Below are positions 2,688-26,590 of a stretch of DNA of 27,387 nucleotides, in pieces. Position numbers and translations under genes: made by a program. Source of the stretch: a virus (lineage: Duplodnaviria; Heunggongvirae; Uroviricota; Caudoviricetes). The notes under the pieces are model-generated. The model saw nothing but the letters and a program-made list of their open reading frames with translations, was not told the origin of the DNA and did no database searches. Every line of letters begins with the position of its first letter. Within the stretch, counting starts at the first letter, position 1. The DNA lies in IMG/VR virus record IMGVR_UViG_3300014890_000018, positions 1 through 27,387 of that record, one strand, 5' to 3'.

Positions 2688-3078
2688 CGCCTTTTCTCCC
2701 CGGTATTAACTCGCGTGGATTATCGGAGCGGTGATAGAGCCAGATGCCAATTCGCACTGCGACGATTGCTGACACGAATGCGCCGGCAGAGAAAACAATC
2801 CCTTTCTCGAAGGAATCCTGTGTGATGGTAGGGATCAGGCTGGCTATGCCGATAAGAATTGATGCTGCTGGTTTGTAAAAAAGAAGGCCGCAAAGAAAGC
2901 TGAGCATCGACAGGACTACCCGGCGGCGGATCGGATATTCGACAGCAGAGGTAACAAAAATCACAGCTCCAGCAAGGGAGCCTAAAGCCACCTCAGGAGG
3001 TGCTCCTGCTATAACCGCCGCCAGAGAACTCATGCTAAGCCACTGATTTAAAGACTCATTGGTTATCTGAACTGACAT
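2674..3078 (-). CDS. Holin-like membrane protein (134 aa from ATG at 3078)
   Basis: Multiple predicted TM helices (LSMSSLAAVIAGAPP, LAGAVIFVTSAV, LSMLSFLCGLLFY, ASILIGIASLI, GAFVSAIVAVRIGIWLY); first gene of the lysis cassette. The track start at 3087 is a GTG; ATG at 3078 preferred. Confidence 0.6.
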   Translation of the reverse strand: MSVQITNESLNQWLSMSSLAAVIAGAPPEVALGSLAGAVIFVTSAVEYPIRRRVVLSMLSFLCGLLFYKPAASILIGIASLIPTITQDSFEKGIVFSAGAFVSAIVAVRIGIWLYHRSDNPRELIPGRKGDGNA

Positions 3079-3193
3079 AAAAACCACCGTTTAATGTGCA
3101 TGAAGAACCACCTTAGTATGGGGTTCACCATGCATATTAAACCATATATGAATAGTTATTACCTCTACATCAATTAAATCACTATCATATAAA

Positions 3194-5779
3194 TTACATC
3201 TGGTTATTAATTTTCATTTCAATATTTTTAATGCGCTCAACCAATCCTCGCATAATGAAACGATCAAGTTCTTGATCTCGGAATTGCCACAAATCTCCTG
3301 CTTTCTTAACTAATTTTTTTTCACCAGTACTCACAGGAATAATGAATTTTTCACCATTTTGATCCGTAATTAACTCATCTTTAATGACATCTTCATATAC
3401 ATCATCCCATTTGTCATACCCTATAAATCCATAATCTCGCCAGTCCAGGCCCTCATCCTCTAAAACAGCAATAACTGCCTGAACAGTGGTGCCAGAGTGC
3501 AACCTTTTAGAATCATCATCAATCCATGTCCAGAAACCTAGCAGATCAGCCACTTTAATTGCTGCATTAATTTCAGATTTGGTGAATCCGCGAATCGGGT
3601 CTTTAAGACGCCCATCTGAACTTGACTGGGTTCCTCCGGCAAAATAACCAATGTTATATCGTAGTGATGCGCTACCTATATTTGAAGTGGCATCAGTTCC
3701 AGGAGTTATTCCTCCTGACGTTGCTATTTGCATTGCTGGAGTAGATCCAGACCCACCATGTCTGAACTGTAATTGACCTACACTGTTGTATTGTGTTCTC
3801 ATGAACCAAGATGTAGCATTGCCATTACTGAGCAGGCCAAGAATAGCATCAGAACCAGATGGAGCCGATACAGTGTACATTCCTGTCTTAGTGAGTGACG
3901 TCATGGTTTCTCCATCCTTGCTGACCAATAGTCTGTCGGAGCTTGCATCCATCATCACTTTCCATCCTGTAGACCCATCAGCAGCATTCTTCGTAAACTG
4001 AATTGATGCGTCACCAATATTCCCATCAGAGCCAAGAATTGCAACGGTATAACCGCCTGCTGGGTCTTTACCCACAACTCCAAATCTACCGTTTAGCGGA
4101 TCGCCTGAAACTATTATTTTTACAGGAATCACTCCGGCAAAATTGTCATTAAATATCTGAGAAATATAATTCATGCGCATGCCATAAAAACTAACGCCTC
4201 TCTTTACATTCTCAGAACCAATAAAAGTCGGAATATCTGAATTTGTAATACCATAAGGTGATTGCTCTACCACACCACCATAAAACTGGATGTTGGATGC
4301 GTGATCAAATTCTAATGCATGATTAGCTCTGGTTCTAAACTCACAGCCATAAAAGTAATGCCCATTTATTTCAGCGGATGTCGCATTAACATCACCATCT
4401 ATATAAAGGCATCGCCATGTGTTTGCGCTAGAGTAATAAGAAACAAGCTCTTCATGAGACATTGATGCACGACTGTGGTGATCAAGGGTATAAATACCAC
4501 ATTTATCTACTCTAGTTCCGCTGAGACCATAACTTGCAGGCCCAGTGTTTGAACCAAGAATTGCTAAACCGACTCGCCCCATAGTTGACCCACCAGTAAT
4601 GGTATTGTAATCAGGGTCATCGTTTCCTTGCTTTGACTGAATTATTGTACCTGCTTTTGAAAAGTATCCGAATACACAAACATCCTCCTGAAGATTTCTT
4701 GCAGAGTCATCGTAATAAACCCCACACTCATAATCTGCACGTTGGTCTTCATCAGGTTTTGTGTGATTACCGATGGAATCATAACAAATCATGTCTTGAA
4801 CCACGGCAATGCCTTTAAGGACAGATCCACTTGAACCATATTCTGGAGAAAGAACTCTCACGCAATATCGAACACTTGCGAAATGATCGTCTCTGTTATC
4901 TGTAGTAGCTATCTTTGTTCCTGCTCCAGAAAATATAAACGTAGCACCAGGCATATTTTCTTTTCTACCTTCAGCAAGAAAGAATTTGTCATCATCAGTA
5001 CCAAATCCAAGAACAGGAGAACCATTACCAATGAATCGAAAATCACCAGGTATTTCTATACCATCAGAGAATCGATAAACCCCATCAGGAACAAAAAAAG
5101 TTTTCTTTCCAGATGCAAGCAAAGCCTGCCACTGCGTTAAGTTGTCCGTTTTATAGTCACCTTTTAATCCAAAATCGGTTATGCTGACTGTATCTCGCAT
5201 CTTATCCTGGAACGTTCGATATATCGCACCAGAACCATACTGAATAAACCAACCAAAACCACCAACAACTCCGGCGATTGCAGCATCAACATAATTACGC
5301 ATTGAGCGATTATTTACAGCATCCTGCTCAAGTGATGGATCTGCAAGGTTAGAAATTCTGTTTTGCTTTGCATCGTAATATTTTGCAAGCAAAGATGGTT
5401 TCATCAATGCACGTCTGAACCACCCAAAACATTGCTGGATCAGCATCGTCAGGTAGTCAAAAGCATCTTCATGCACTTCGGGGAAAAATTTTCCCTGATT
5501 GCGAAGGTCTGTCTCCTGCACTACATCAAGCACACGATCTATCGTAATTCGCCATCCAGCAGCAAGCGGCGACGGAAGAACAACAGAACCGCCACTATAA
5601 GTGCCCGCCCCAGTTACCGTATAACCGGTATCCAGAACCAATTCTGTTACGTTCCCGTTCAGGTCAGACACCTGAACAACCAGGTCGGATTTTTTGAAAA
5701 TACGGAAGGTATACGGAAATGATGTCGTAGCGCCGTTACCGGTGTATTCGTTGTGGTCAACTTCGGTTGAGACCGTCAT
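3194..5779 (-). CDS. Tailspike / tail fibre: conserved N-terminal anchor, low-GC central domain (probable glycan depolymerase), C-terminal intramolecular chaperone (peptidase S74-like)
   Basis: 861 aa. N-terminus (MTVSTEVDHNEYTGNGATTSFPYTF...) matches the conserved N-terminal domain of podovirus tail fibres/spikes. C-terminal ~135 aa follow a SSDGRLKD motif, the S-D-x-R-x-K autocleavage signature of S74 chaperone domains. RBS GGAG 7 nt upstream. Strong AT-shift over roughly 3.2-5.5 kb versus the 5' end. Confidence 0.85.
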   Translation of the reverse strand: MTVSTEVDHNEYTGNGATTSFPYTFRIFKKSDLVVQVSDLNGNVTELVLDTGYTVTGAGTYSGGSVVLPSPLAAGWRITIDRVLDVVQETDLRNQGKFFPEVHEDAFDYLTMLIQQCFGWFRRALMKPSLLAKYYDAKQNRISNLADPSLEQDAVNNRSMRNYVDAAIAGVVGGFGWFIQYGSGAIYRTFQDKMRDTVSITDFGLKGDYKTDNLTQWQALLASGKKTFFVPDGVYRFSDGIEIPGDFRFIGNGSPVLGFGTDDDKFFLAEGRKENMPGATFIFSGAGTKIATTDNRDDHFASVRYCVRVLSPEYGSSGSVLKGIAVVQDMICYDSIGNHTKPDEDQRADYECGVYYDDSARNLQEDVCVFGYFSKAGTIIQSKQGNDDPDYNTITGGSTMGRVGLAILGSNTGPASYGLSGTRVDKCGIYTLDHHSRASMSHEELVSYYSSANTWRCLYIDGDVNATSAEINGHYFYGCEFRTRANHALEFDHASNIQFYGGVVEQSPYGITNSDIPTFIGSENVKRGVSFYGMRMNYISQIFNDNFAGVIPVKIIVSGDPLNGRFGVVGKDPAGGYTVAILGSDGNIGDASIQFTKNAADGSTGWKVMMDASSDRLLVSKDGETMTSLTKTGMYTVSAPSGSDAILGLLSNGNATSWFMRTQYNSVGQLQFRHGGSGSTPAMQIATSGGITPGTDATSNIGSASLRYNIGYFAGGTQSSSDGRLKDPIRGFTKSEINAAIKVADLLGFWTWIDDDSKRLHSGTTVQAVIAVLEDEGLDWRDYGFIGYDKWDDVYEDVIKDELITDQNGEKFIIPVSTGEKKLVKKAGDLWQFRDQELDRFIMRGLVERIKNIEMKINNQM

Positions 5780-5832
5780 GTTAAATCTCCAGATAGTCGC
5801 AGCACCCGTTGCGCCGCATATCTGGTTATTCT

Positions 5833-5896
5833 ATTACCTGAAAAACCACATATGGATAGATAACCCATAAATACGAAAAGATATTACCTTTCAGGT
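5833..5896. promoter_or_regulatory. Divergent regulatory region A (between the tailspike and the SOS-regulated ORF) carrying the same two motifs as region B
   Basis: AACCACATATG at 5844-5854 and ATTACCTTTCAGGT at 5883-5896, same order and orientation as in region B (spacing 28 vs 40 bp). Confidence 0.5.
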
Positions 5897-5935
5897 GATT
5901 TGCAAAACGTGCTGGATAGCAAACAAATTATTTGA

Positions 5936-5955
5936 TACTGTATATTTATACAGTT
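5936..5955 (+). promoter_or_regulatory. LexA (SOS) box, 18/20 match to consensus
   Basis: TACTGTATATTTATACAGTT versus consensus TACTGTATATATATACAGTA; CTGT-N8-ACAG core intact; lies 20 bp upstream of the ATG at 5975, in the divergent region between the tailspike and the small plus-strand ORF. Confidence 0.75.
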
Positions 5956-5974
5956 ATTGCATGGAGAAGATAAG

Positions 5975-6232
5975 ATGCAGCAGTATCACTATCCACTGGA
6001 AGACGGATTTACCGAAAGGATTCACACGCCGGGAGGCGTCAGGTCACTGGTGGAGGGATCGCACTTGATGAAATTACTCCGGGATCTCGATAAGGATGGA
6101 TTTAATGTCGATGGCCCACTTGCCGAACTGACTGCACTGATTAACTACGTCACCAGCTCACAGATGTCTATGCAGGATCTGCAAACACATCTCGACTATT
6201 GTGCCGAACAATTACGAAAGCAAACCACATAA
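5975..6232 (+). CDS. SOS-regulated small protein (85 aa), function unknown; candidate antirepressor or SOS-induced accessory protein
   Basis: ATG at 5975 with GGAG 8 nt upstream (the track start at 5957 is a TTG); LexA box just upstream; opposite orientation to all flanking structural genes. No motif I recognise. Confidence 0.55.
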   Translation: MQQYHYPLEDGFTERIHTPGGVRSLVEGSHLMKLLRDLDKDGFNVDGPLAELTALINYVTSSQMSMQDLQTHLDYCAEQLRKQTT

Positions 6233-6254
6233 AGAAAAGGCCGCGAAAGCGGCC
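6231..6254 (-). terminator. Rho-independent terminator for the minus-strand secreted-protein gene; hairpin also abuts the stop codon of the plus-strand small ORF
   Basis: Perfect stem ggccgc / gcggcc with GNRA-type loop gaaa at 6239-6254; on the minus strand it is followed by TTTTCTTT (6238-6231). On the plus strand no U-tract follows. Confidence 0.65.
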
Positions 6255-6255
6255 T

Positions 6256-6267
6256 GTGACATGTCAC
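6256..6267. repeat. 12-bp perfect palindrome GTGACATGTCAC, copy 1 of 3
   Basis: Exact string; identical copies at 23979-23990 and 26244-26255; each sits beside an intrinsic-terminator hairpin at a junction between gene modules. Confidence 0.8.
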
Positions 6268-6268
6268 G

Positions 6269-6829
6269 CTACATTGATATATGATTCATAAAGTAGCTTA
6301 GAGATTTACTTCCCAGAAAAGAAATTTCTTTTCCTGGATATGTCGCAATAATTGAGCATGACTTATCCCCGTTAGAGGTAACAAATCCTGAATAACCTAC
6401 TTGTTCTTTACCATTTTGTTGCTTGGCTAAAAAGTAGAGGTAGCTTATCTTTTTGCCCTCTGGGTAAAACTCTGCCAAACCAGTATCGGTGATTGAATAT
6501 TTTATTCTCCCGCCTTGAGTAACGTTTTCCATCTCAAGTTTAGCTATGTCTTTTCTGTTGTATTCAGCATTGATTTTCCTTTCGAAATCAATGTTGTTTT
6601 CAAATGAGTAGGAAGCAACAGTCTGAATAGATGGGAACACGTTTATCTGGATGCCTCCACAGTCGGCACAGGTATAAAGGTATGAATCAGATGGAATCCC
6701 CATAAAAGAAAACTGAGTTACCTTAAATTTATCGCTATCTCCAAAGTATTGAAGTTCGCATTTAACATTTTGCCCTGCAAAAGAAAATGCAGACATTAAT
6801 ATTGAAACAAAAAATATAATTGCCTTCAT
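6269..6829 (-). CDS. AT-rich moron encoding a secreted (signal-peptide) protein of unknown function, 186 aa
   Basis: Signal peptide MKAIIFFVSILMSAFSFAG, no lipobox; four Cys in the mature part; markedly AT-rich versus the upstream virion genes; starts 2 nt after the stop of the 850-aa gene; followed by terminator and palindrome. Confidence 0.65.
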   Translation of the reverse strand: MKAIIFFVSILMSAFSFAGQNVKCELQYFGDSDKFKVTQFSFMGIPSDSYLYTCADCGGIQINVFPSIQTVASYSFENNIDFERKINAEYNRKDIAKLEMENVTQGGRIKYSITDTGLAEFYPEGKKISYLYFLAKQQNGKEQVGYSGFVTSNGDKSCSIIATYPGKEISFLGSKSLSYFMNHISM

Positions 6830-6831
6830 TA

Positions 6832-9384
6832 TTATTTACCTAGCATGAACTGCGATGGTGGGATCAGAAAGTCGTTCCCCTGCTCACGCTCAACACGGCG
6901 CTGATAACGCTCAAGAGAGCCTGGGTCAAGGGCATCTTGTATCCGGTTCAATATTAAACCATTCATCGCCGTACGAAGCCAGAACACGTTGAGGAATGGC
7001 GTATTGTCAAGTGCCGTGCGATACCAGTCACCCAAATCTGCATCCCCTCTCGTGGTCTGCTGGAGCAGCGTGATAATGCTGTCAGCGTTCGATGCTGCCG
7101 GCCCCATTAGCGACGTAACCGGCCCGGCCCCCATGCGGTTGACCTCGCCAAACATGAAGTCACCCAAGATGCCAAGACCGCCCCCCTGAGATGCGGCTGC
7201 GAGAAACGTCTTGGCATCTGCCGGGCGTGGTGTTTGCCCTTTCAGCATGAGTTTTGACTGCATGGAGATATAACCAAACATAGTCGCCCAGACAAAGAGG
7301 TTTGCAGCACCAAGGAAAGCCCCCTTCCCGTTACGCAGCAGCGCATTCGTCAGCGATCCGGTTTTCGACTCACCAAGCCCAGCAGGAATATAACCACGCC
7401 CGAATACTTCGCGTCCTAGTACGTTCTGCATGAAGCTTGCAGTGAACGATTTGTACTGACCAGCGAATCGTATTGCTTCCCCAGCCACCGTTCCTGGCAC
7501 CGTGCCCATCTTCATAAACGCCTGCGTGCGATCGCCAGGCTCTGACATGGCGATATTCAGGCGGTCAAGGATGTAGCCGCGCAACTGCCCTTCCAATTGA
7601 TCGCGTGCGTCAGCGATAGCGCGCTGCGTTGGCTTGATCCCCTTACTCTCTACATAACCGGCAATCACTTCGTCAGGCACGCCGCGGATGCCGCTGGTCG
7701 TCATGAACTTACGACCTTCGCTATCGGCCATGTCCATGTTGCGAAAAATTTCCCACTCACGTTCGCCAATACCGTGCAGATCCAGCACGCGTCGCAGGTC
7801 TTCCGGTAGCCTCGCATGAGGCTGGTCAGCATTCTTTGCAAGCCAGTTGGTTATCATCATGGCGTTACTGTTGCGACCGCTCTCGGTCCAGAAGTTCATG
7901 AGGTTGTACTTAAAGAAAAGCTGCTGCGCGCGACCAAGTTTTCCATTCAGCGTGTCATCACCAGATATGCGCCGGATGATTTCCTGCGTCATGGAGTCGG
8001 AATAAACTCCGATAGAGGAAAGGATCTCTTTCTGCTCCGCGCTGTTGTAACGCGTGAAGCGGCCTCTCATAGCACCAAGCAACGCCTGCATAAAATTCTG
8101 CCCTTGGTAGCGCATCTCGGTAGCGGCGATAGGCACGTCGTTAAACGATGAGATTACCGCGCCACCAAGCTGGCTCATACGCAACCAGCCGCGTACAGCC
8201 GCAGACGCATTGGCCCAGCCTACGCTGCCAGGAATATTTAGCGAGCCGTCAACCTGCGGCATTACGGTACGGTTAATGCGACGCACCTTCGTCATGTAGT
8301 CAGCCAACGCTGCCGGTCTTCCGGATTTGCTGATATCTTCAGCAATGGTGTCCGTCAGGTACTTAAACATGTTCTGTGGGTTAGTGCCCAGTACGCGCAT
8401 CATGCCCGTTGTGCGGGCAGCGCTGTTTAAGCCACCAAACAGCGCCTCTCGCAGGCTGCCGGTGCCGAATTGCTGGTTGTACTCGTGCCACGAGATACCA
8501 TCTTTGAAGTGCAAAATTCGCTCTTGGCTGGCGCGTTTAGCTGCGTTCGCCGATCCCTTAAAGCCATTCATCCAATCGGGCTTTTCAGATGTAAGATGCA
8601 CGCCGGAAGCCAGCCCGTTATAAATGTTACGCATGAACTGCTCGCGGTCAGCCACGCCGTCAAAAGTGCGTTCATCAAGGCGCGGGAGAATAGCATTTCG
8701 CCATGCTTCATAACCTGCGGCGCGGATCTTCATGATGTCGTGTGACTGGCGCACTATATAGCCCGGCTCTTTGCGTATCCATGCCCCGGCGCGGTTCTCA
8801 TCAATGCGCGCAGTTTCCTGCCATTTCATGATGATTTGTGCAGCGCTTACGGATTGCTTTGTCATACCGTCAGTTGACTGCCCGCGCCCTATGCGCCACA
8901 TTGCATCGGCAATTTCCCTGTCATTGCTGCCGCTGGCGATGAATTGCACCAGCCCGGCACGGTCAAAATCGTAGTTGATACCGGAATGATACTTGCCGCG
9001 CAGTTGCGCCACCTCCGAAGATACCGACCGGCGGGCGCCGGTACGCGCATCGTTGCGGCCAACCAGCATTGCTTCAAGCCCGATATCCGGGCGGTCTTTC
9101 CAGATAGTACGAAGCTCTCTAAGTCGTTGTGCGGCAATACGGGTGTTGATTGCCTTATTGCGAGACTCAATCTGTTTTGCCAGCATATCGGCATTGCTCA
9201 GTTCTTCCGCTGCGCGCATCGCGGCCTCTTCCAGAGACAGCGCCTCATTGGTCGCCAGAATTCGCCTAGTGGTGTCGTTCATGTCACGCACCAGCGACTC
9301 CATCTCATCGGAAGAAAGCTCGCGACCAGCGGCAGCATTTACACTGCGCTCGCACTGCGTCAAAAATTCGTTTGCTGCCATCAC
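6832..9384 (-). CDS. Internal virion / ejection protein (850 aa)
   Basis: Large ORF in the run of three large genes after the tail tubular genes, the position held by gp15/gp16-like core proteins in T7-like podoviruses; start overlaps the upstream gene stop. Confidence 0.65.
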   Translation of the reverse strand: MMAANEFLTQCERSVNAAAGRELSSDEMESLVRDMNDTTRRILATNEALSLEEAAMRAAEELSNADMLAKQIESRNKAINTRIAAQRLRELRTIWKDRPDIGLEAMLVGRNDARTGARRSVSSEVAQLRGKYHSGINYDFDRAGLVQFIASGSNDREIADAMWRIGRGQSTDGMTKQSVSAAQIIMKWQETARIDENRAGAWIRKEPGYIVRQSHDIMKIRAAGYEAWRNAILPRLDERTFDGVADREQFMRNIYNGLASGVHLTSEKPDWMNGFKGSANAAKRASQERILHFKDGISWHEYNQQFGTGSLREALFGGLNSAARTTGMMRVLGTNPQNMFKYLTDTIAEDISKSGRPAALADYMTKVRRINRTVMPQVDGSLNIPGSVGWANASAAVRGWLRMSQLGGAVISSFNDVPIAATEMRYQGQNFMQALLGAMRGRFTRYNSAEQKEILSSIGVYSDSMTQEIIRRISGDDTLNGKLGRAQQLFFKYNLMNFWTESGRNSNAMMITNWLAKNADQPHARLPEDLRRVLDLHGIGEREWEIFRNMDMADSEGRKFMTTSGIRGVPDEVIAGYVESKGIKPTQRAIADARDQLEGQLRGYILDRLNIAMSEPGDRTQAFMKMGTVPGTVAGEAIRFAGQYKSFTASFMQNVLGREVFGRGYIPAGLGESKTGSLTNALLRNGKGAFLGAANLFVWATMFGYISMQSKLMLKGQTPRPADAKTFLAAASQGGGLGILGDFMFGEVNRMGAGPVTSLMGPAASNADSIITLLQQTTRGDADLGDWYRTALDNTPFLNVFWLRTAMNGLILNRIQDALDPGSLERYQRRVEREQGNDFLIPPSQFMLGK

Positions 9385-20704: not shown

Positions 20705-20997
20705 TCCTGTTCACTGGCCTCTTTGGCCATCTTCAAATACTGTTCAGGGCAATGCGCCATAACGCGCTGAAACAGTTCCAGCGCCAGATTGCGTTGCCCC
20801 TCATTAAATGCCATTGCCATAGCGTCCATCGGTGAGATAGCGGAAAACACACGGCCTTTCTCCAGCACCGACCAGACAACGCGACGCCCCTGTTCACTGC
20901 TCATGACAAAGCGAATGTCATCAATTTCACGCTGTGCCATGTCACGTTGCTTACGGGCGTTTTCTTCTTTCATTTGATCGTCTTCGTAATCTGTCAT
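20701..20997 (-). CDS. Hypothetical small protein between portal and scaffold (98 aa)
   Basis: Translationally coupled at both ends (overlaps the portal stop and the scaffold start); acidic. Confidence 0.5.
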   Translation of the reverse strand: MTDYEDDQMKEENARKQRDMAQREIDDIRFVMSSEQGRRVVWSVLEKGRVFSAISPMDAMAMAFNEGQRNLALELFQRVMAHCPEQYLKMAKEASEQE

Positions 20998-23483: not shown

Positions 23484-23561
23484 ACAGCAGGACGCCATTG
23501 CGATGACTTCATGCTGTAAACCAGTACAGCCACGGAAGGCATAACTCATTGCTTCCAGTTC

Positions 23562-23584
23562 GCCCGGTTCGCCGGGCATTTTTT
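23562..23584 (+). terminator. Strong rho-independent terminator (UUCG tetraloop) immediately upstream of the 125-aa ORF
   Basis: Stem gcccgg / ccgggc, loop ttcg, then aTTTTTT; only 12 nt before the ATG at 23597. Confidence 0.65.
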
Positions 23585-23596
23585 AAAGGTGAGATT

Positions 23597-23974
23597 ATGA
23601 ACGACCAGCAAATCGAAAAAGAAATCGTTGAGAAAGGCAAAACGGCACCGCGAATCACCCCGCAGCACATCGAAGACGTGATTATTAGTGAGCACTATTT
23701 CACGGCTGCAGAAGGGGTTCATGGCGCTAATGAGCTTTTAAAACCGCATGAAAGCCCAATTGACTATTACCAGGAAGCGCACCCTGCTGAGTCACTTCTG
23801 ACCTTCTGCGTTCTGGTGCTGCGCAACGGATTTACTGTAACCGGAGAAAGCGCCTGTGCAAGCCCGGAAAACTTTGATGCAGAAATTGGTCGGAAGATTG
23901 CCCGGCAGAATGCTGTAAACAAAATCTGGATGCTTGAAGGTTACTTGCTGAAGCAGAAGTTAAGCGAGCAATAA
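23597..23974 (+). CDS. Hypothetical protein (125 aa) in the tRNA cassette, function unknown
   Basis: ATG at 23597 with RBS AAAGGTGAG 4-12 nt upstream (the track ORF starts earlier at 23549); plus strand, antisense to the structural operon; followed by palindrome and terminator. Confidence 0.6.
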   Translation: MNDQQIEKEIVEKGKTAPRITPQHIEDVIISEHYFTAAEGVHGANELLKPHESPIDYYQEAHPAESLLTFCVLVLRNGFTVTGESACASPENFDAEIGRKIARQNAVNKIWMLEGYLLKQKLSEQ

Positions 23975-23978
23975 CACC

Positions 23979-23990
23979 GTGACATGTCAC
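23979..23990. repeat. 12-bp perfect palindrome GTGACATGTCAC, copy 2 of 3
   Basis: Exact string 5 nt after the stop of the 125-aa ORF and 4 nt before a terminator hairpin; between the convergent 125-aa ORF and TerL. Confidence 0.8.
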
Positions 23991-23994
23991 AAAC

Positions 23995-24021
23995 AGCCAG
24001 CCTATGAGCTGGCTTTGTTTT
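23995..24021 (+). terminator. Rho-independent terminator ending the plus-strand tRNA/ORF cassette
   Basis: Stem agccagc / gctggct with loop ctatga, followed by ttgtttt. Confidence 0.55.
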
Positions 24022-24064: not shown

Positions 24065-25540
24065 TTAAGCATAAGGGTCATAATCCGTTATGGCCCTTCC
24101 CTGCTGGCTTTGCTGTCCTGGTATATTTATGCGTTTCGAGACCGGGAAAGCAAACGTCAGCAGTAGCGCATCGCCTTTACCCGGAGAACGCCCAAGCCGC
24201 TCCTTGATATCTTCCTTCGGTTCGATAACGACTTTACCGTCCACTCGAACTTTGTACTCTGCCGCCGACAGGTCGTCTGCAGTTTCCTGGTCATCCAGCA
24301 TGCCGCCGAGCCTCAGCCATGTCTTGCATGAGTTGAACATCTCCCCACGCTTGTTAAGCATCTGCGGGTCAGTGGACGCACCGCCGAACGGAACAAGTTG
24401 CCATGTACGTCCCCAGCCATCACCGATTGACTTCAAACCGGTTCCGTAACCGAAGTCGATGAACACTGCGTCAGCCTGGTACTGGTCTTCAAAGTCAGCG
24501 ATACGCTTCGCCATAATCAGATCGTCAGTGGTCTTGTTGCCAGTCCATAGCACCTTACTGTGCAGCCCCTGCCGCAGGTATATCACAGCGTCATCAACGC
24601 CGGAGTATGCCGGGTCAACGCCGATTATCACCGGAGCATGTGCAACCTGCGCAGCGGTTACCACCCGTTTCATTGCCTCGTCAGTAAGGCCGGTAGGGAT
24701 AAACTGTAATTCAGATGCATCAGGGAATATGCCGCGCACACGGATTTTAACGAAGTCGCTGTCTTCCCCGTAGTCATCAACCCATTTCTGCAACTGCTGT
24801 TTGTTAGTGCCTTCCACCGTCCGGCTGTCAATCTGCGCAGTTTTCCAGCGGTGTTTATATTTGCGGAAACATTCGCGGAAACGCCCGGTGTTACGTGTAG
24901 GGTTTCCGAACGCCACCCAGATAATCTCAGTGTCTTCGTCCGTAAGCGCACCCTCAGCAACTTCCCACACCAGATCCGCAATGTTCGACGCTTCATCGAA
25001 TACCACGATGATGCGTTTGCGCTCGTTGTGTAGTCCGGCGAATGCCTCAGTGTTGTGCTCAGACCAGGGTATTGCGTCAGCTCGCCACCGCTTGTCGTGC
25101 CCAGGGTCATTGCTGTACATCGCGGTAGCGGTACAGGTAAACCAGTCTTTCGTGATAGCAAGGTTCGACCACTTGATAATTTCCGGCCAGGTCTTCGTTC
25201 GTAGCTGGTTGTCGGTGTTGGCGGTCACCACGACCTTACAATCCTCGCAAGTGGACATGCCCCAGTTGATCAGCATTGAGATGAATGCGGATTTACCAAT
25301 ACCGTGACCAGAAGCACGTGCCAGCATAAGCGGCTGATATCGCGTCTCTGGATTCTGCAGGTGATCACGTATCTCTCGGAACGCATCGGCCTGCCACTGA
25401 CGTGGACCGGTGGCATGTGCCAGTTCAGTACCCTCTTCCCCCCACGGGAACGCATAGAGGGCATAGCCAAGCGGATCGTGAGTGAACCCTGCAATATCCT
25501 CGATTAACTGCTCTTCAGGAGATAACGCTGTATCTGTCAC
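24065..25540 (-). CDS. Terminase large subunit (491 aa)
   Basis: Walker A-type motif ARASGHGIGKSAF near the N-terminus, acidic nuclease-type C-terminal half, ATGA-type overlap with the TerS stop. Confidence 0.9.
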   Translation of the reverse strand: MTDTALSPEEQLIEDIAGFTHDPLGYALYAFPWGEEGTELAHATGPRQWQADAFREIRDHLQNPETRYQPLMLARASGHGIGKSAFISMLINWGMSTCEDCKVVVTANTDNQLRTKTWPEIIKWSNLAITKDWFTCTATAMYSNDPGHDKRWRADAIPWSEHNTEAFAGLHNERKRIIVVFDEASNIADLVWEVAEGALTDEDTEIIWVAFGNPTRNTGRFRECFRKYKHRWKTAQIDSRTVEGTNKQQLQKWVDDYGEDSDFVKIRVRGIFPDASELQFIPTGLTDEAMKRVVTAAQVAHAPVIIGVDPAYSGVDDAVIYLRQGLHSKVLWTGNKTTDDLIMAKRIADFEDQYQADAVFIDFGYGTGLKSIGDGWGRTWQLVPFGGASTDPQMLNKRGEMFNSCKTWLRLGGMLDDQETADDLSAAEYKVRVDGKVVIEPKEDIKERLGRSPGKGDALLLTFAFPVSKRINIPGQQSQQGRAITDYDPYA

Positions 25541-26133
25541 TGATTGCCATCCTGACGTTCTTTCAGTCTCTTCCTGGCTGCCGCTATGCGATCAGCAATT
25601 GTCACATTCACATTAACATCCAGGCGTTCTTTGAATGCGTTGACGTCGACGTGCTTACCAATCAGTTCGAGGTTCTTCACCTTGTCAGGCCATTTAATTT
25701 TTTTGAGGATTGTCTCTATCGAATCCTCGTTCATGTTCATGATGGTCGATGACAGATCAAAGCCACTAAGCGTAGTGCGCCAGATTTTCGGCCACTCGCG
25801 GATTGGCTTAAGGCTCCCATCGTCGTTGAGGATGTCGATCACGTCCATCTGGTCGATCTCCACCAGGCGCATGAGAACGTAATCAGCACTGACGCGCATT
25901 CGTTTGTTGCGCTCCTCCATCAACTCGGCAATCCGTTTTTGAATGCGTTCATCGCGCATCATGACACTGGCTTTAACTGCCGCTGTATTTGGGGAGAATC
26001 CTGCGTTAATCGCTGCCTGAGTCTGGTTTTCAGGCGTTTTGATGTATGACTGGCAATAAGCCTCCTGCATTGCTGTTAGTGGCTTAAATTGCGTTGATTT
26101 GCGTTTATAGGTTTTAGGTTCAGCAGGCATCAT
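25537..26133 (-). CDS. Terminase small subunit (about 198 aa from ATG at 26133)
   Basis: N-terminal helix-turn-helix segment AMQEAYCQSYIKTPENQTQAAINAGFSPNTAAVKASVMM is typical of small-terminase DNA-binding domains; directly upstream of and overlapping TerL. The track start at 26211 is a TTG inside the upstream terminator/repeat region; ATG at 26133 (or 26130) preferred. Confidence 0.8.
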   Translation of the reverse strand: MMPAEPKTYKRKSTQFKPLTAMQEAYCQSYIKTPENQTQAAINAGFSPNTAAVKASVMMRDERIQKRIAELMEERNKRMRVSADYVLMRLVEIDQMDVIDILNDDGSLKPIREWPKIWRTTLSGFDLSSTIMNMNEDSIETILKKIKWPDKVKNLELIGKHVDVNAFKERLDVNVNVTIADRIAAARKRLKERQDGNQ

Positions 26134-26140
26134 AACCACC

Positions 26141-26169
26141 GTGGTAATAGTTACCGTTGTGGTAATAGT
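26141..26169. repeat. Two direct repeats of GTGGTAATAGT, 18 bp apart, just upstream of the TerS start
   Basis: Exact 11-mers at 26141-26151 and 26159-26169, between a minus-strand terminator and the TerS ATG. Confidence 0.7.
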
Positions 26170-26175
26170 ACCATG

Positions 26176-26202
26176 CAAAATAAAGCCGCCATAGTTGGCG
26201 GC
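26176..26202 (-). terminator. Rho-independent terminator on the minus strand, upstream of the terminase genes
   Basis: Perfect 7-bp stem gccgcca / tggcggc with 4-nt loop at 26185-26202, followed on the minus strand by TTTATTTTG. Confidence 0.6.
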
Positions 26203-26243
26203 AGTATTCAAAACACATCAAATTCATCATGCATAATATACTC

Positions 26244-26255
26244 GTGACATGTCAC
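26244..26255. repeat. 12-bp perfect palindrome GTGACATGTCAC, copy 3 of 3
   Basis: Exact string overlapping the stop codon of the 112-aa gene and about 40 bp from the terminator hairpin upstream of TerS. Confidence 0.8.
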
Positions 26256-26590
26256 ACTATTAATTTCGTTTCATGCCAGCCTTTAGTCACCCAGCATTGC
26301 GAGTCACCATTACACGGGCATGAATTAACTGGCACTCTCTCGCCGCACTTACCGCAACGTTTTCTGCTGATCGATTTTATACGCCCGCGCACGCGTGCAT
26401 CATCCTGGCGGATCAGTAACGCTATATACTCACCAAATTCGTAAGGCGCACGCCCGGGGCGACGCGCGGCACAGTTACGCTCCAGCATTTCAATTTCCTG
26501 AGCATCAAGCACAATCTCCAGTTTACGCACACCAGATGCAGCTTGTCTGGCTCTCTGAGCGGCTTTGCGCTCTGCTGCTGATTTAGCCAT
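26252..26590 (-). CDS. Hypothetical small protein with C-terminal Cys-rich (zinc-ribbon-like) motif, 112 aa
   Basis: ATG at 26590 (the track start at 26593 is a TTG); basic N-terminal helical region; C-terminal CGKCGERVPVNSCPCNGDSQC cluster; overlaps the upstream ASCH-like gene. Confidence 0.5.
   Translation of the reverse strand: MAKSAAERKAAQRARQAASGVRKLEIVLDAQEIEMLERNCAARRPGRAPYEFGEYIALLIRQDDARVRGRIKSISRKRCGKCGERVPVNSCPCNGDSQCWVTKGWHETKLIV

What the first reader, a model, noticed from the sequence alone, without database searches (positions are those of the whole stretch)
6256..6267. 12-bp perfect palindrome GTGACATGTCAC present three times, always beside a terminator hairpin at a module junction
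Exact copies lie at 6256-6267, 23979-23990 and 26244-26255. Three exact copies of a 12-mer in 27 kb are far beyond chance. Copies 2 and 3 bracket the terminase genes, and copy 1 separates the secreted-protein/SOS insertion from the virion genes. Each is within about 1-40 bp of an intrinsic-terminator hairpin. The motif could be an operator for a dimeric DNA-binding protein, a packaging or recombination signal, or a boundary sequence where mosaic modules were joined.
Basis: seen in the sequence. Interest (0 to 1): 0.6.

Follow-up and report, generated by a model that had tools for sequence, protein, structure and literature searches.

The report
Conserved phage operator palindrome, matS-like
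The thrice-repeated 12-bp palindrome is real and conserved, and is most likely the DNA site bound by a small uncharacterised ribbon-helix-helix/zinc protein whose gene ends inside one copy, a protein-and-site pair that recurs in many unrelated temperate phages.

Summary
GTGACATGTCAC occurs exactly at 6256, 23979 and 26244, where 0.002 copies are expected. The copies lie 0, 4 and 41 nt from terminator hairpins. The window is an epsilon15/phiV10-like (Uetakevirus) prophage of E. coli inserted at guaA.

The same palindrome sits at the same three junctions in phages of E. coli, Salmonella and Klebsiella, as an island of identity in diverged flanks. Those junctions are the terL end, the end of the virion operon, and the stop codon of the gp49 homologue.

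Copy 3 overlaps the TGA stop of a 112-aa protein with a ribbon-helix-helix fold and a Cys-rich tail (no Pfam family, no name). Homologues at 31-58% identity in N15, P2-like, Mu-like, Pantoea and Vibrio phages also carry GTGAC-N2-GTCAC, often on their own stop codon.

In 546 kb of phage DNA encoding this family the motif occurs 41 times (0.5 expected). Every other spacing occurs 0-1 times. In 200 kb of lambda, P22, P2, Mu and Sf6 it occurs 0 times.

The half-sites equal those of E. coli matS (GTGAC-N3-GTCAC), but the spacing differs and no homology to MatP was detected.

My best reading is a cognate operator that marks and probably insulates transcription-unit ends. The function itself is inferred, not shown.

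The parts
6256..6267 (.). PAL copy 1 (site B). It lies between the stop of the last virion-operon gene (orf186, - strand) and the terminator hairpin. It faces the convergent LexA-controlled orf91.
   Evidence: The same junction carries PAL in phiV10, epsilon15, BUCT711, 66FD and SPN9TCW.
23979..23990 (.). PAL copy 2 (site A). It lies between the convergent 3' ends of terL (- strand) and a PF13876 (Sf6 gp66-like) moron (+ strand), 4 nt before the hairpin.
   Evidence: It is conserved in phiV10, epsilon15, Kp4865-1 and SPN9TCW, and in 66FD with a CT centre.
26244..26255 (.). PAL copy 3 (site C). It overlaps the TGA stop codon (26254-26252, - strand) of the gp49-like gene. It lies 41 nt upstream of a terminator and about 110 nt upstream of terS.
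   Evidence: The same stop-codon overlap is seen in dozens of viral contigs and in distant homologues.
26252..26590 (-). Gene for the proposed PAL-binding protein (homologue of epsilon15 gp49, phiV10 p55 and N15 gp46). It is 112 aa, with a basic N-terminal helix, a ribbon-helix-helix core, a long helix and a Cys-rich tail (CxxC...C...C).
6238..6255 (-). Intrinsic-terminator hairpin of the virion operon (AGGCCGCTTTCGCGGCCT plus T-run), directly abutting PAL copy 1.
23995..24014 (+). Terminator hairpin with a T-run on the + strand. It terminates the moron transcript that runs towards terL. It has no T-run in the terL direction.
   Evidence: alignment
26185..26202 (-). Terminator hairpin (GCCGCCAACTATGGCGGC plus T-run) between PAL copy 3 and terS.
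25537..26211 (-). terS (PF03592), with terL at 24065-25540. Together they form the unit bracketed by copies 2 and 3. The real terS start is probably the ATG at 26133.
5957..6232 (+). orf91 (epsilon15 gp19-like; called 'anti-repressor' in the 66FD record), preceded by a LexA box at 5936-5955. It is transcribed towards PAL copy 1.
23549..23974 (+). PF13876 (N4 gp49 / Sf6 gp66 family) moron, transcribed towards PAL copy 2.

Best explanation
GTGACATGTCAC is the cognate double-stranded-DNA operator of a small phage protein, the gp49-like protein encoded at 26252-26590 on the - strand. That protein has a ribbon-helix-helix (RHH) fold and a zinc-binding tail. The two half-sites, GTGAC and GTCAC, are separated by exactly 2 bp and would be read by a symmetric RHH dimer, or by a pair of dimers.

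In this prophage the three operators sit at the 3' ends of three transcription units: the early-right operon, terS-terL, and the virion operon. Each stands next to an intrinsic terminator, always on the side of the hairpin that lacks the T-run.

I infer that the bound protein acts as a transcriptional boundary, that is, a roadblock or termination helper. It would stop read-through from the early operon into the late genes. It would also stop convergent moron and SOS-gene transcripts from running antisense into the terminase and virion operons.

Shown: the motif, its conservation, its strict spacing, its non-coding placement, its co-occurrence with the protein family, and the RHH fold.

Inferred: that this protein is the binder, and what binding does.
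For: (1) Chance is excluded. There are three exact copies where 0.002 are expected.

(2) The site is conserved. The same three junctions carry the motif in Uetakeviruses of E. coli, Salmonella and Klebsiella while the flanks diverge.

(3) The site is physically linked to the gene. In IMG/VR contigs the motif sits on the stop codon of gp49-like genes down to 46% identity, whatever follows it. What follows can be a terminator plus terS, a LexA-box promoter, or the next gene's ribosome-binding site. N15 gp46, a Yersinia P2-like phage, Pantoea AH07 and Citrobacter Omnitron keep GTGAC-NN-GTCAC on their stop codon. In a Mu-like phage the motif is kept at the same place although it is translated there.

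(4) The motif co-occurs with the family. It is found 41 times in 546 kb of family-positive phage DNA, against 0-1 for every other spacer length. It is found 0 times in 200 kb of family-negative lambda, P22, P2, Mu and Sf6. Vibrio-type homologues at 31-35% identity have 2-3 copies each.

(6) The half-sites never vary, with no compensatory changes, while only the central dinucleotide varies. That fits protein-DNA recognition better than an RNA stem, and the RNA hairpin would have only 4 bp.

(7) Between 27 and 33 of the 41 sites are intergenic or at gene ends, in genomes that are about 90% coding.
Against: There is no binding data of any kind.

Some family members lack the motif in the DNA available (L146, Aeromonas 14AhydR10PP).

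A few sites lie inside genes, for example N15 repA and a Klebsiella virion gene.

The roadblock function rests on placement alone. In N15-like and Vibrio-type phages the site lies 3-20 nt upstream of the next start codon, with no terminator. Site A is missing in some relatives. So 'terminator partner' cannot be the universal role.

An RNA polymerase stalled at a roadblock would stop before finishing the adjacent hairpin, so any synergy with the terminator is not mechanistically obvious.

Exact copies of the palindrome also form tandem arrays in distant bacteria that lack this protein family. Other proteins may therefore read the same sequence.
Confidence: 0.55

Rival explanations
1. Q-like late switch. 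The gp49-like protein binds PAL and makes passing RNA polymerase resistant to the terminator just downstream. Early-right transcription would then read into terS and terL, and virion-operon transcription would read on towards the tailspike and lysis genes.
For: The order is gene, then site, then terminator, then late genes. The gene sits where lambdoid Q sits in several phages, ahead of the lysis and terS genes. At sites B and C, in N15 (28550) and in Omnitron, PAL precedes a terminator in the direction of transcription. Promoter-like matches use the PAL half GTGACA as a -35 element.
Against: At site A the PAL-then-terminator order is on the antisense strand, so antitermination there would drive transcription antisense into terL. 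N15, its relative L141 and Pantoea AH07 each have a separate Q-type activator or antiterminator. The P2-like phage has its own Ogr. The promoter-like matches are not conserved between relatives. There is no similarity to any Q family.
Confidence: 0.15
2. Architectural or bridging role, like MatP-matS. The protein bound at two or three sites per genome would pair the sites and fold the phage chromosome into loops. The loops would correspond to the terminase operon, the virion operon and the rest of the genome. The purpose could be regulation, replication or packaging.
Against: No sequence homology to MatP was detected (hhalign probability below 1%). There is no four-helix bundle and no MatP Pfam domain. 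The spacer is 2 bp, not 3. Many family members have a single site. Whether MatP itself bridges its sites in vivo is disputed (PMC6907758).
Confidence: 0.1
3. The sites are read by a host protein, either MatP despite the 1-bp shorter spacer or another factor. On this view the linkage to the gp49-like gene is incidental.
For: The half-sites match matS. All the homologues I saw come from Enterobacterales, Vibrio and Aeromonas. By my own recollection of Mercier 2008, which I did not check here, those are the groups that encode MatP. Exact PAL arrays exist in many bacteria that lack this family.
Against: The motif is absent from five control phages of the same hosts. It tracks the phage protein family. 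True matS is avoided by prophages (PMC3603311). This prophage sits at guaA, which by my own knowledge of the E. coli map is outside the Ter region. The N3 spacing is not enriched.
Confidence: 0.05
4. RNA-level element. A small GUGA/UCAC hairpin in the transcripts would act as a processing, stability or translational signal next to the terminators or ribosome-binding sites.
For: The site is often transcribed, next to terminator hairpins or 3-20 nt upstream of start codons. The fold predicts a 4-bp hairpin beside the terminator. The protein's N-terminus is arginine-rich.
Against: The stem is only 4 bp and energetically marginal. Forty-one sites show no compensatory stem changes, and the fifth base pair, which could not form in such a hairpin, is invariant. 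The element works in both orientations relative to genes. The RHH fold is a DNA-binding fold.
Confidence: 0.05
5. Recombination boundary or linker sequence. The palindrome would be a short shared sequence at which mosaic modules are exchanged, with no regulatory role.
For: All three sites separate conserved core modules from variable morons. Boundary sequences are annotated in lambdoid phages such as Sf6.
Against: Twelve bp is too short for homologous exchange. One identical sequence occupies three different junctions. The spacer is strict and the motif is linked to one protein family across unrelated phage types. The motif persists even when it is inside coding sequence.
Confidence: 0.05

Closest known systems
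MatP / matS (E. coli Ter macrodomain organiser)
   Same: The half-sites are identical (GTGAC...GTCAC). The DNA-binding core is an RHH preceded by a basic helix. There are a few dispersed sites per replicon. The hosts are, by my recollection rather than by a test here, those that carry MatP.
   Different: The spacer is 2 bp, not 3 (41 versus 1 occurrences). There is no four-helix bundle and no MatP_C domain, and hhalign finds no homology. The sites are on a phage, not in the Ter region. A Cys-rich tail replaces the coiled coil.
Ribbon-helix-helix repressors and their operators (P22 Arc and Mnt, CopG, omega of pSM19035, RHH antitoxins)
   Different: No Pfam RHH model reaches its threshold. There is an extra Zn-binding C-terminal module. 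In many lineages the operator overlaps the gene's stop codon instead of its promoter. Further copies stand beside terminators at operon ends.
Lambda Q / qut late antitermination module
   Same: The gene order is regulator, then DNA site, then terminator, then late genes. The position in the genome map is the same.
   Different: There is no Q-family domain. Several carriers have a separate Q or Ogr. The sites are also found at operon 3' ends and in antisense orientation.
DksA/TraR C4 zinc-finger proteins
   Same: A weak profile match of the C-terminal half to TraR and YbiI (E = 0.03).

Membership tests
Ribbon-helix-helix (Arc/MetJ/CopG) DNA-binding proteins | beta-alpha-alpha fold that dimerises to form a two-stranded sheet | tested here: met
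Ribbon-helix-helix (Arc/MetJ/CopG) DNA-binding proteins | match to a curated RHH sequence family | tested here: not met
   There is no Pfam hit for the window protein. Among 55 members there are only sporadic sub-threshold hits: RHH_5 twice, RepB-RCR_reg twice, RHH_1 once.
Ribbon-helix-helix (Arc/MetJ/CopG) DNA-binding proteins | specific binding to a short symmetric or repeated operator | not testable with these tools
   Only co-occurrence of the site and the gene is shown. There is no binding assay.
MatP/matS | 13-bp site GTGACRNYGTCAC | tested here: not met
   The half-sites are identical, but the spacer is 2 bp in 41 sites and 3 bp in 1.
MatP/matS | MatP architecture (PF06303 four-helix bundle plus PF17414 RHH/coiled coil) | tested here: not met
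Lambda-type Q/qut antitermination | Q-family protein (PF06323, PF03589 or the Q21 fold) | tested here: not met
   No such domain is found. The N15-like and Pantoea carriers encode a separate Q.
Lambda-type Q/qut antitermination | binding site embedded in a constitutive late promoter, followed by a terminator | tested here: inconclusive
   A terminator is present 41 nt downstream. Promoter-like hexamers overlap PAL, but they are weak (9 of 12 matches) and are not conserved in epsilon15 or the Klebsiella phages.
DksA/TraR zinc finger | C4 zinc finger after a long helix, matching PF01258 | tested here: not met
Intrinsic terminator | GC-rich stem of at least 5 bp followed by a U-tract | tested here: not met
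   PAL alone folds to a 4-bp stem with no U-tract. The terminators are the separate neighbouring hairpins.
Lambdoid boundary (linker) sequences | junction-specific conserved stretches of tens of bp shared between mosaic relatives | tested here: not met
   PAL is 12 bp. The same sequence occupies three junctions and occurs in unrelated phage types, and its flanks are not conserved. Sf6 'bsq' features are annotated for comparison.

The most novel reading that the evidence does not exclude
The gp49-like proteins are a widespread, undescribed class of phage-encoded site-specific DNA organisers. They have converged on, or descend from, the MatP recognition code (GTGAC half-sites) but use a private 2-bp spacing, so that they do not cross-talk with the host Ter system. 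By binding two or three sites per genome at operon ends they would act as protein-dependent transcription insulators or loop anchors. In effect they would be boundary elements for a viral chromosome. Related RHH-plus-PAL modules and PAL arrays would then exist far outside the enterobacteria.
Probability: 0.15. Interest if true: 0.8.

Novelty: new variant of a known kind. Interest (0 to 1): 0.55.

Why it matters
The work assigns a testable partner and role to a motif that is not annotated in the epsilon15 and phiV10 reference records. It also does so for a 'hypothetical' protein family of several hundred sequence clusters. That family is present in model phages, including N15 gp46 and epsilon15 gp49.

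If binding is confirmed, it defines a new RHH subfamily with a zinc-binding tail. Its operator layout is unusual: the site lies on the gene's own stop codon and beside terminators.

Confirmation would also give a handle on how Uetakeviruses separate early, late and moron transcription.

Finally, it raises a concrete question about specificity relative to host MatP/matS, because the half-sites are the same and the spacer is one base pair shorter.

Tried and rejected
- **Literature.** The 12-mer string is in no paper held. The epsilon15 genome paper could not be read. The ZX5 paper does not mention the motif or the protein.
- **MatP homology.** hhalign with one MatP sequence and with three gave nothing. 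The large MatP search returned only near-identical E. coli sequences, so it did not improve the profile.
- **Promoter idea.** PAL as a -35 element gave weak hits that are not conserved.
- **Related loci.** The search for related loci with the whole family alignment failed because no block was conserved enough. I used the look-up of encoding contigs instead.
- **Pattern scans.** I used the 14-mer TGTGACATGTCACG, which covers only some flank variants.
- **Genome-wide scan.** The scan of species-representative genomes is dominated by chance hits and unrelated arrays. Only 5 of 120 loci carry the protein family, so it says little about the host background.
- **Host genome count.** A whole E. coli genome count of the motif could not be made with the tools.

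Full report
**Observation.** GTGACATGTCAC occurs exactly three times, at 6256, 23979 and 26244 (read). About 0.002 copies are expected by chance in 27.4 kb, and 2000 shuffles never gave more than one. It is the only 12-bp perfect palindrome that recurs in the window. Simple terminator scans place hairpin plus T-run elements 0, 4 and 41 nt from the three copies.

**Genomic setting.** The window is an epsilon15/phiV10-like podovirus prophage (genus Uetakevirus), with its genes on the minus strand. Host genes yfgH and yfgI occupy 1-1071. In a closely related E. coli prophage the other end abuts guaA.
- Copy 3 lies between the last gene of the early-right operon (the homologue of epsilon15 gp49) and terS.
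- Copy 2 lies between the convergent ends of terL and a PF13876 moron.
- Copy 1 lies between the last gene of the virion operon and a convergent small gene preceded by a LexA box.

**Conservation.**
- Epsilon15 shares about 80% DNA identity with the window in the terminase genes. It has exactly three copies, at the same three junctions.
- phiV10 has two exact copies, plus a third with one mismatch split over the ends of its record.
- Five more genomes were checked: four Uetakeviruses (Klebsiella BUCT711 and Kp4865-1, Salmonella 66FD and SPN9TCW) and the unclassified Citrobacter phage Omnitron. They carry the motif at most of these junctions.
- Alignments show the 12 bp as an island of perfect identity. 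Upstream flanks at site B and downstream flanks at site C are unrelated between phages.
- Neither reference record annotates the motif. The string is in no paper I could search.

**The link to a protein.** A scan of IMG/VR with a 14-mer containing the palindrome returned 120 loci.
- In many loci the palindrome overlaps the stop codon of a gp49-like gene. This holds even when that protein is only 46-56% identical and whatever comes next. What follows can be a terminator plus terS, a LexA-box promoter, or the next gene's ribosome-binding site 9 nt away.
- Other hits are coding coincidences, for example Q-type antiterminators encoding MRDMSQ or VTCH, or unrelated GTGAC-rich arrays.

The protein has these properties.
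- It is 112 aa, belongs to phrog_536, has no Pfam family and has no PDB sequence relative.
- The family has 766 clusters at 90% identity and 156 representatives at 50%, all unnamed.
- An alignment of 55 diverse members shows a basic N-terminal helix, a short strand, two helices and a Cys-rich tail with an invariant CxxC.
- AlphaFold gives a confident model (pLDDT 90.7).

**Distant homologues carry the same inverted repeat.**
- N15 gp46 (35% identity) ends in GTGACTGGTCAC.
- A Yersinia P2-like phage gene ends in GTGACGCGTCAC.
- Pantoea AH07 gene 31 ends in GTGACCTGTCAC.
- In all three the TGA stop is in the same register as in the window.
- Vibrio-type homologues (31-35% identity) lack the stop-codon overlap. 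They have two or three copies per genome or locus, one of them 11-19 nt upstream of the terS start codon.
- In a Mu-like prophage the motif is kept at the homologous place although a frame change makes it coding (S-V-T-G-H).
- N15 has three sites, all with a TG centre. One of them, inside repA, is conserved in a relative.

**Statistics.**
- In 546 kb from 16 phage genomes or loci that encode the family, GTGAC-Nk-GTCAC occurs 41 times for k = 2. It occurs 0-1 times for every other k from 0 to 8 (0.5 expected). The single half-sites are not enriched.
- In 200 kb of lambda, P22, P2, Mu and Sf6, which lack the family by tblastn and profile search, the k = 2 motif is absent.
- Between 27 and 33 of the 41 sites are intergenic or at gene ends.
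- The half-sites never change. Only the central dinucleotide does, and it tends to be the same within a lineage: AT in Uetakeviruses, TG in N15-like and Mu-like phages, GC or AC in Vibrio-type phages.
- Invariant sequence without compensatory change, together with a predicted RNA stem of only 4 bp, favours duplex-DNA recognition over an RNA structure.

**Relation to matS.** The E. coli MatP site is GTGACRNYGTCAC (PMC6907758; PMC3603311). It has the same half-sites with a 3-bp spacer.
- The phage motif is strictly N2, and N3 is not enriched.
- True matS is absent from 500 enterobacterial prophages, which was interpreted as avoidance (PMC3603311).
- Profile comparison finds no MatP homology, and the MatP domains are missing.
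- I therefore treat this as the closest functional analogue, not as membership.
- A weak similarity of the C-terminal half to TraR/DksA zinc fingers was not confirmed by Pfam. It was also not confirmed by a fold search with a separate C-terminal model.

**Mechanism.** This section is inference. At all three window sites the order is PAL, then hairpin, then T-run. PAL therefore occupies the side of the hairpin that has no T-run. At sites A and B that side faces a convergent gene: terL at site A (facing the moron) and the LexA-controlled orf91 at site B (facing the virion operon).
- A protein bound there could block transcription from the direction the intrinsic terminator does not cover. At site C it could limit read-through from the early operon into terS, which has its own operator-bearing upstream region.
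- This boundary or roadblock reading works in either orientation, which suits a palindrome.
- A Q-like antitermination reading fits the gene, site, terminator, late-gene order at site C. It fits poorly at site A, and several carriers have their own Q or Ogr.
- In other lineages the site lies just upstream of a start codon. In L130, and in a beta-proteobacterial MAG, it lies just upstream of the regulator's own gene. That looks like ordinary RHH repression or autoregulation.
- So the general role is 'operator'. The terminator-side placement is a Uetakevirus elaboration.

**Caveats.**
- There is no binding evidence.
- Not every family member has the motif in the DNA available.
- Some sites are inside genes, and site A is missing in some relatives.
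- I could not count the motif in a whole host genome.
- A scan of species-representative genomes found the 14-mer scattered over all phyla at roughly chance level. The protein family was nearby only in Enterobacterales (5 of 120 loci, 4 of them with the motif on the stop codon).
- The same scan found tandem arrays of the exact palindrome in Sorangium, Jettenia, Gemmatimonadota and others. Other proteins may use the same sequence.

**Verdict.** The finding is real and non-random, and it is under selection. The most probable identity is the operator of an uncharacterised phage RHH/zinc protein, a new variant of a known kind of system. The function at operon boundaries is plausible but unproven.

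Noticed in passing
window 5936-5955: A near-perfect LexA box (TACTGTATATTTATACAGTT) lies immediately upstream of orf91 (5957-6232). This gene resembles epsilon15 gp19 and is called 'anti-repressor' in the phage 66FD record. It suggests SOS-controlled induction through a small antirepressor.
   Followed up: partly
window 26150-26166 (- strand ATTACCACAACGGTAAC): This is the homologue of the site annotated as a repressor-binding operator just upstream of terS in the epsilon15 record (ATTACCAAAACGGTAAT). An overlapping palindrome, GGTAATAGTTACC, lies at 26143-26155. The terminase operon may therefore be under direct prophage-repressor control.
   Followed up: partly
window 26133 versus 26211: The long terS ORF (TTG at 26211, as annotated in phiV10 and RefSeq) would include the terminator hairpin and the operator in its coding sequence. 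The ATG at 26133 (MMPAEP...), which matches the epsilon15 annotation, is the more likely start.
   Followed up: no
window 20934-20945: A one-mismatch copy, GTGCCATGTCAC, lies inside the 98-aa gene downstream of the portal gene. phiV10 has its counterpart at position 5306. It is probably a coding coincidence.
   Followed up: no
L127:363-431, L139:12697-12780, L004, L005, L022, L033: In the Klebsiella Uetakeviruses and several viral contigs, the PAL at the gp49-like stop is followed within 6 nt by a promoter with a perfect LexA box (TACTGTATATATACAGTA). That promoter drives a gene resembling UmuD or a peptidase S24.
   Followed up: no
L206:1846-1923, L162, L251, L258, L224, L225:200-247, L163, L192, L259: Tandem arrays of the exact palindrome GTGACATGTCAC occur in very distant bacteria: Sorangium, Candidatus Jettenia, Gemmatimonadota and Alphaproteobacteria. 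The periods are 18, 22, 33 or 44 bp and there are 2-5 copies. No gp49-like gene was detected nearby. The binder is unknown.
   Followed up: partly
L156:6625-6905 (beta-proteobacterial MAG): An 82-aa ORF predicted to be RHH-like (6649-6897) has a PAL 12 nt upstream of its ATG. It also has GTGACACGTCAC inside the gene and a PAL overlapping its TGA stop. hhalign against the phage family is collinear but weak (E = 0.02).
   Followed up: partly
L009, L014, L019, L071, L121; L056, L058, L064, L075; L125:34430: The same 12-mer recurs inside antiterminator genes purely as coding sequence. In one gene class (start resembling P22 gene 23, recognised from memory) it encodes M-R-D-M-S-Q at the start. In another (resembling lambda Q, recognised from memory, plus the annotated antitermination gene of Pantoea AH07) it encodes V-T-C-H in the zinc finger. 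This is a source of false positives in motif scans.
   Followed up: partly
L136:33237 and L141:5092: N15 and a relative both keep GTGACTGGTCAC inside the repA replication gene, with the following roughly 40 nt also conserved. It could be a regulatory site within repA or simply conserved coding sequence.
   Followed up: no
window 3001-7000: G+C drops to 40-43%, against about 51-58% in the virion genes. The drop covers the tailspike, orf91 and orf186, which is consistent with a recently exchanged host-range and moron module.
   Followed up: no
L130:133-309 and L145:148-327: In two lambda-like contigs a short ORF (58-59 aa) of the DUF1441 family sits directly upstream of the gp49-like gene. I take DUF1441 to be related to small terminase subunits. 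In L130 that ORF's stop codon overlaps a PAL that lies 3 nt before the gp49-like ATG.
   Followed up: no
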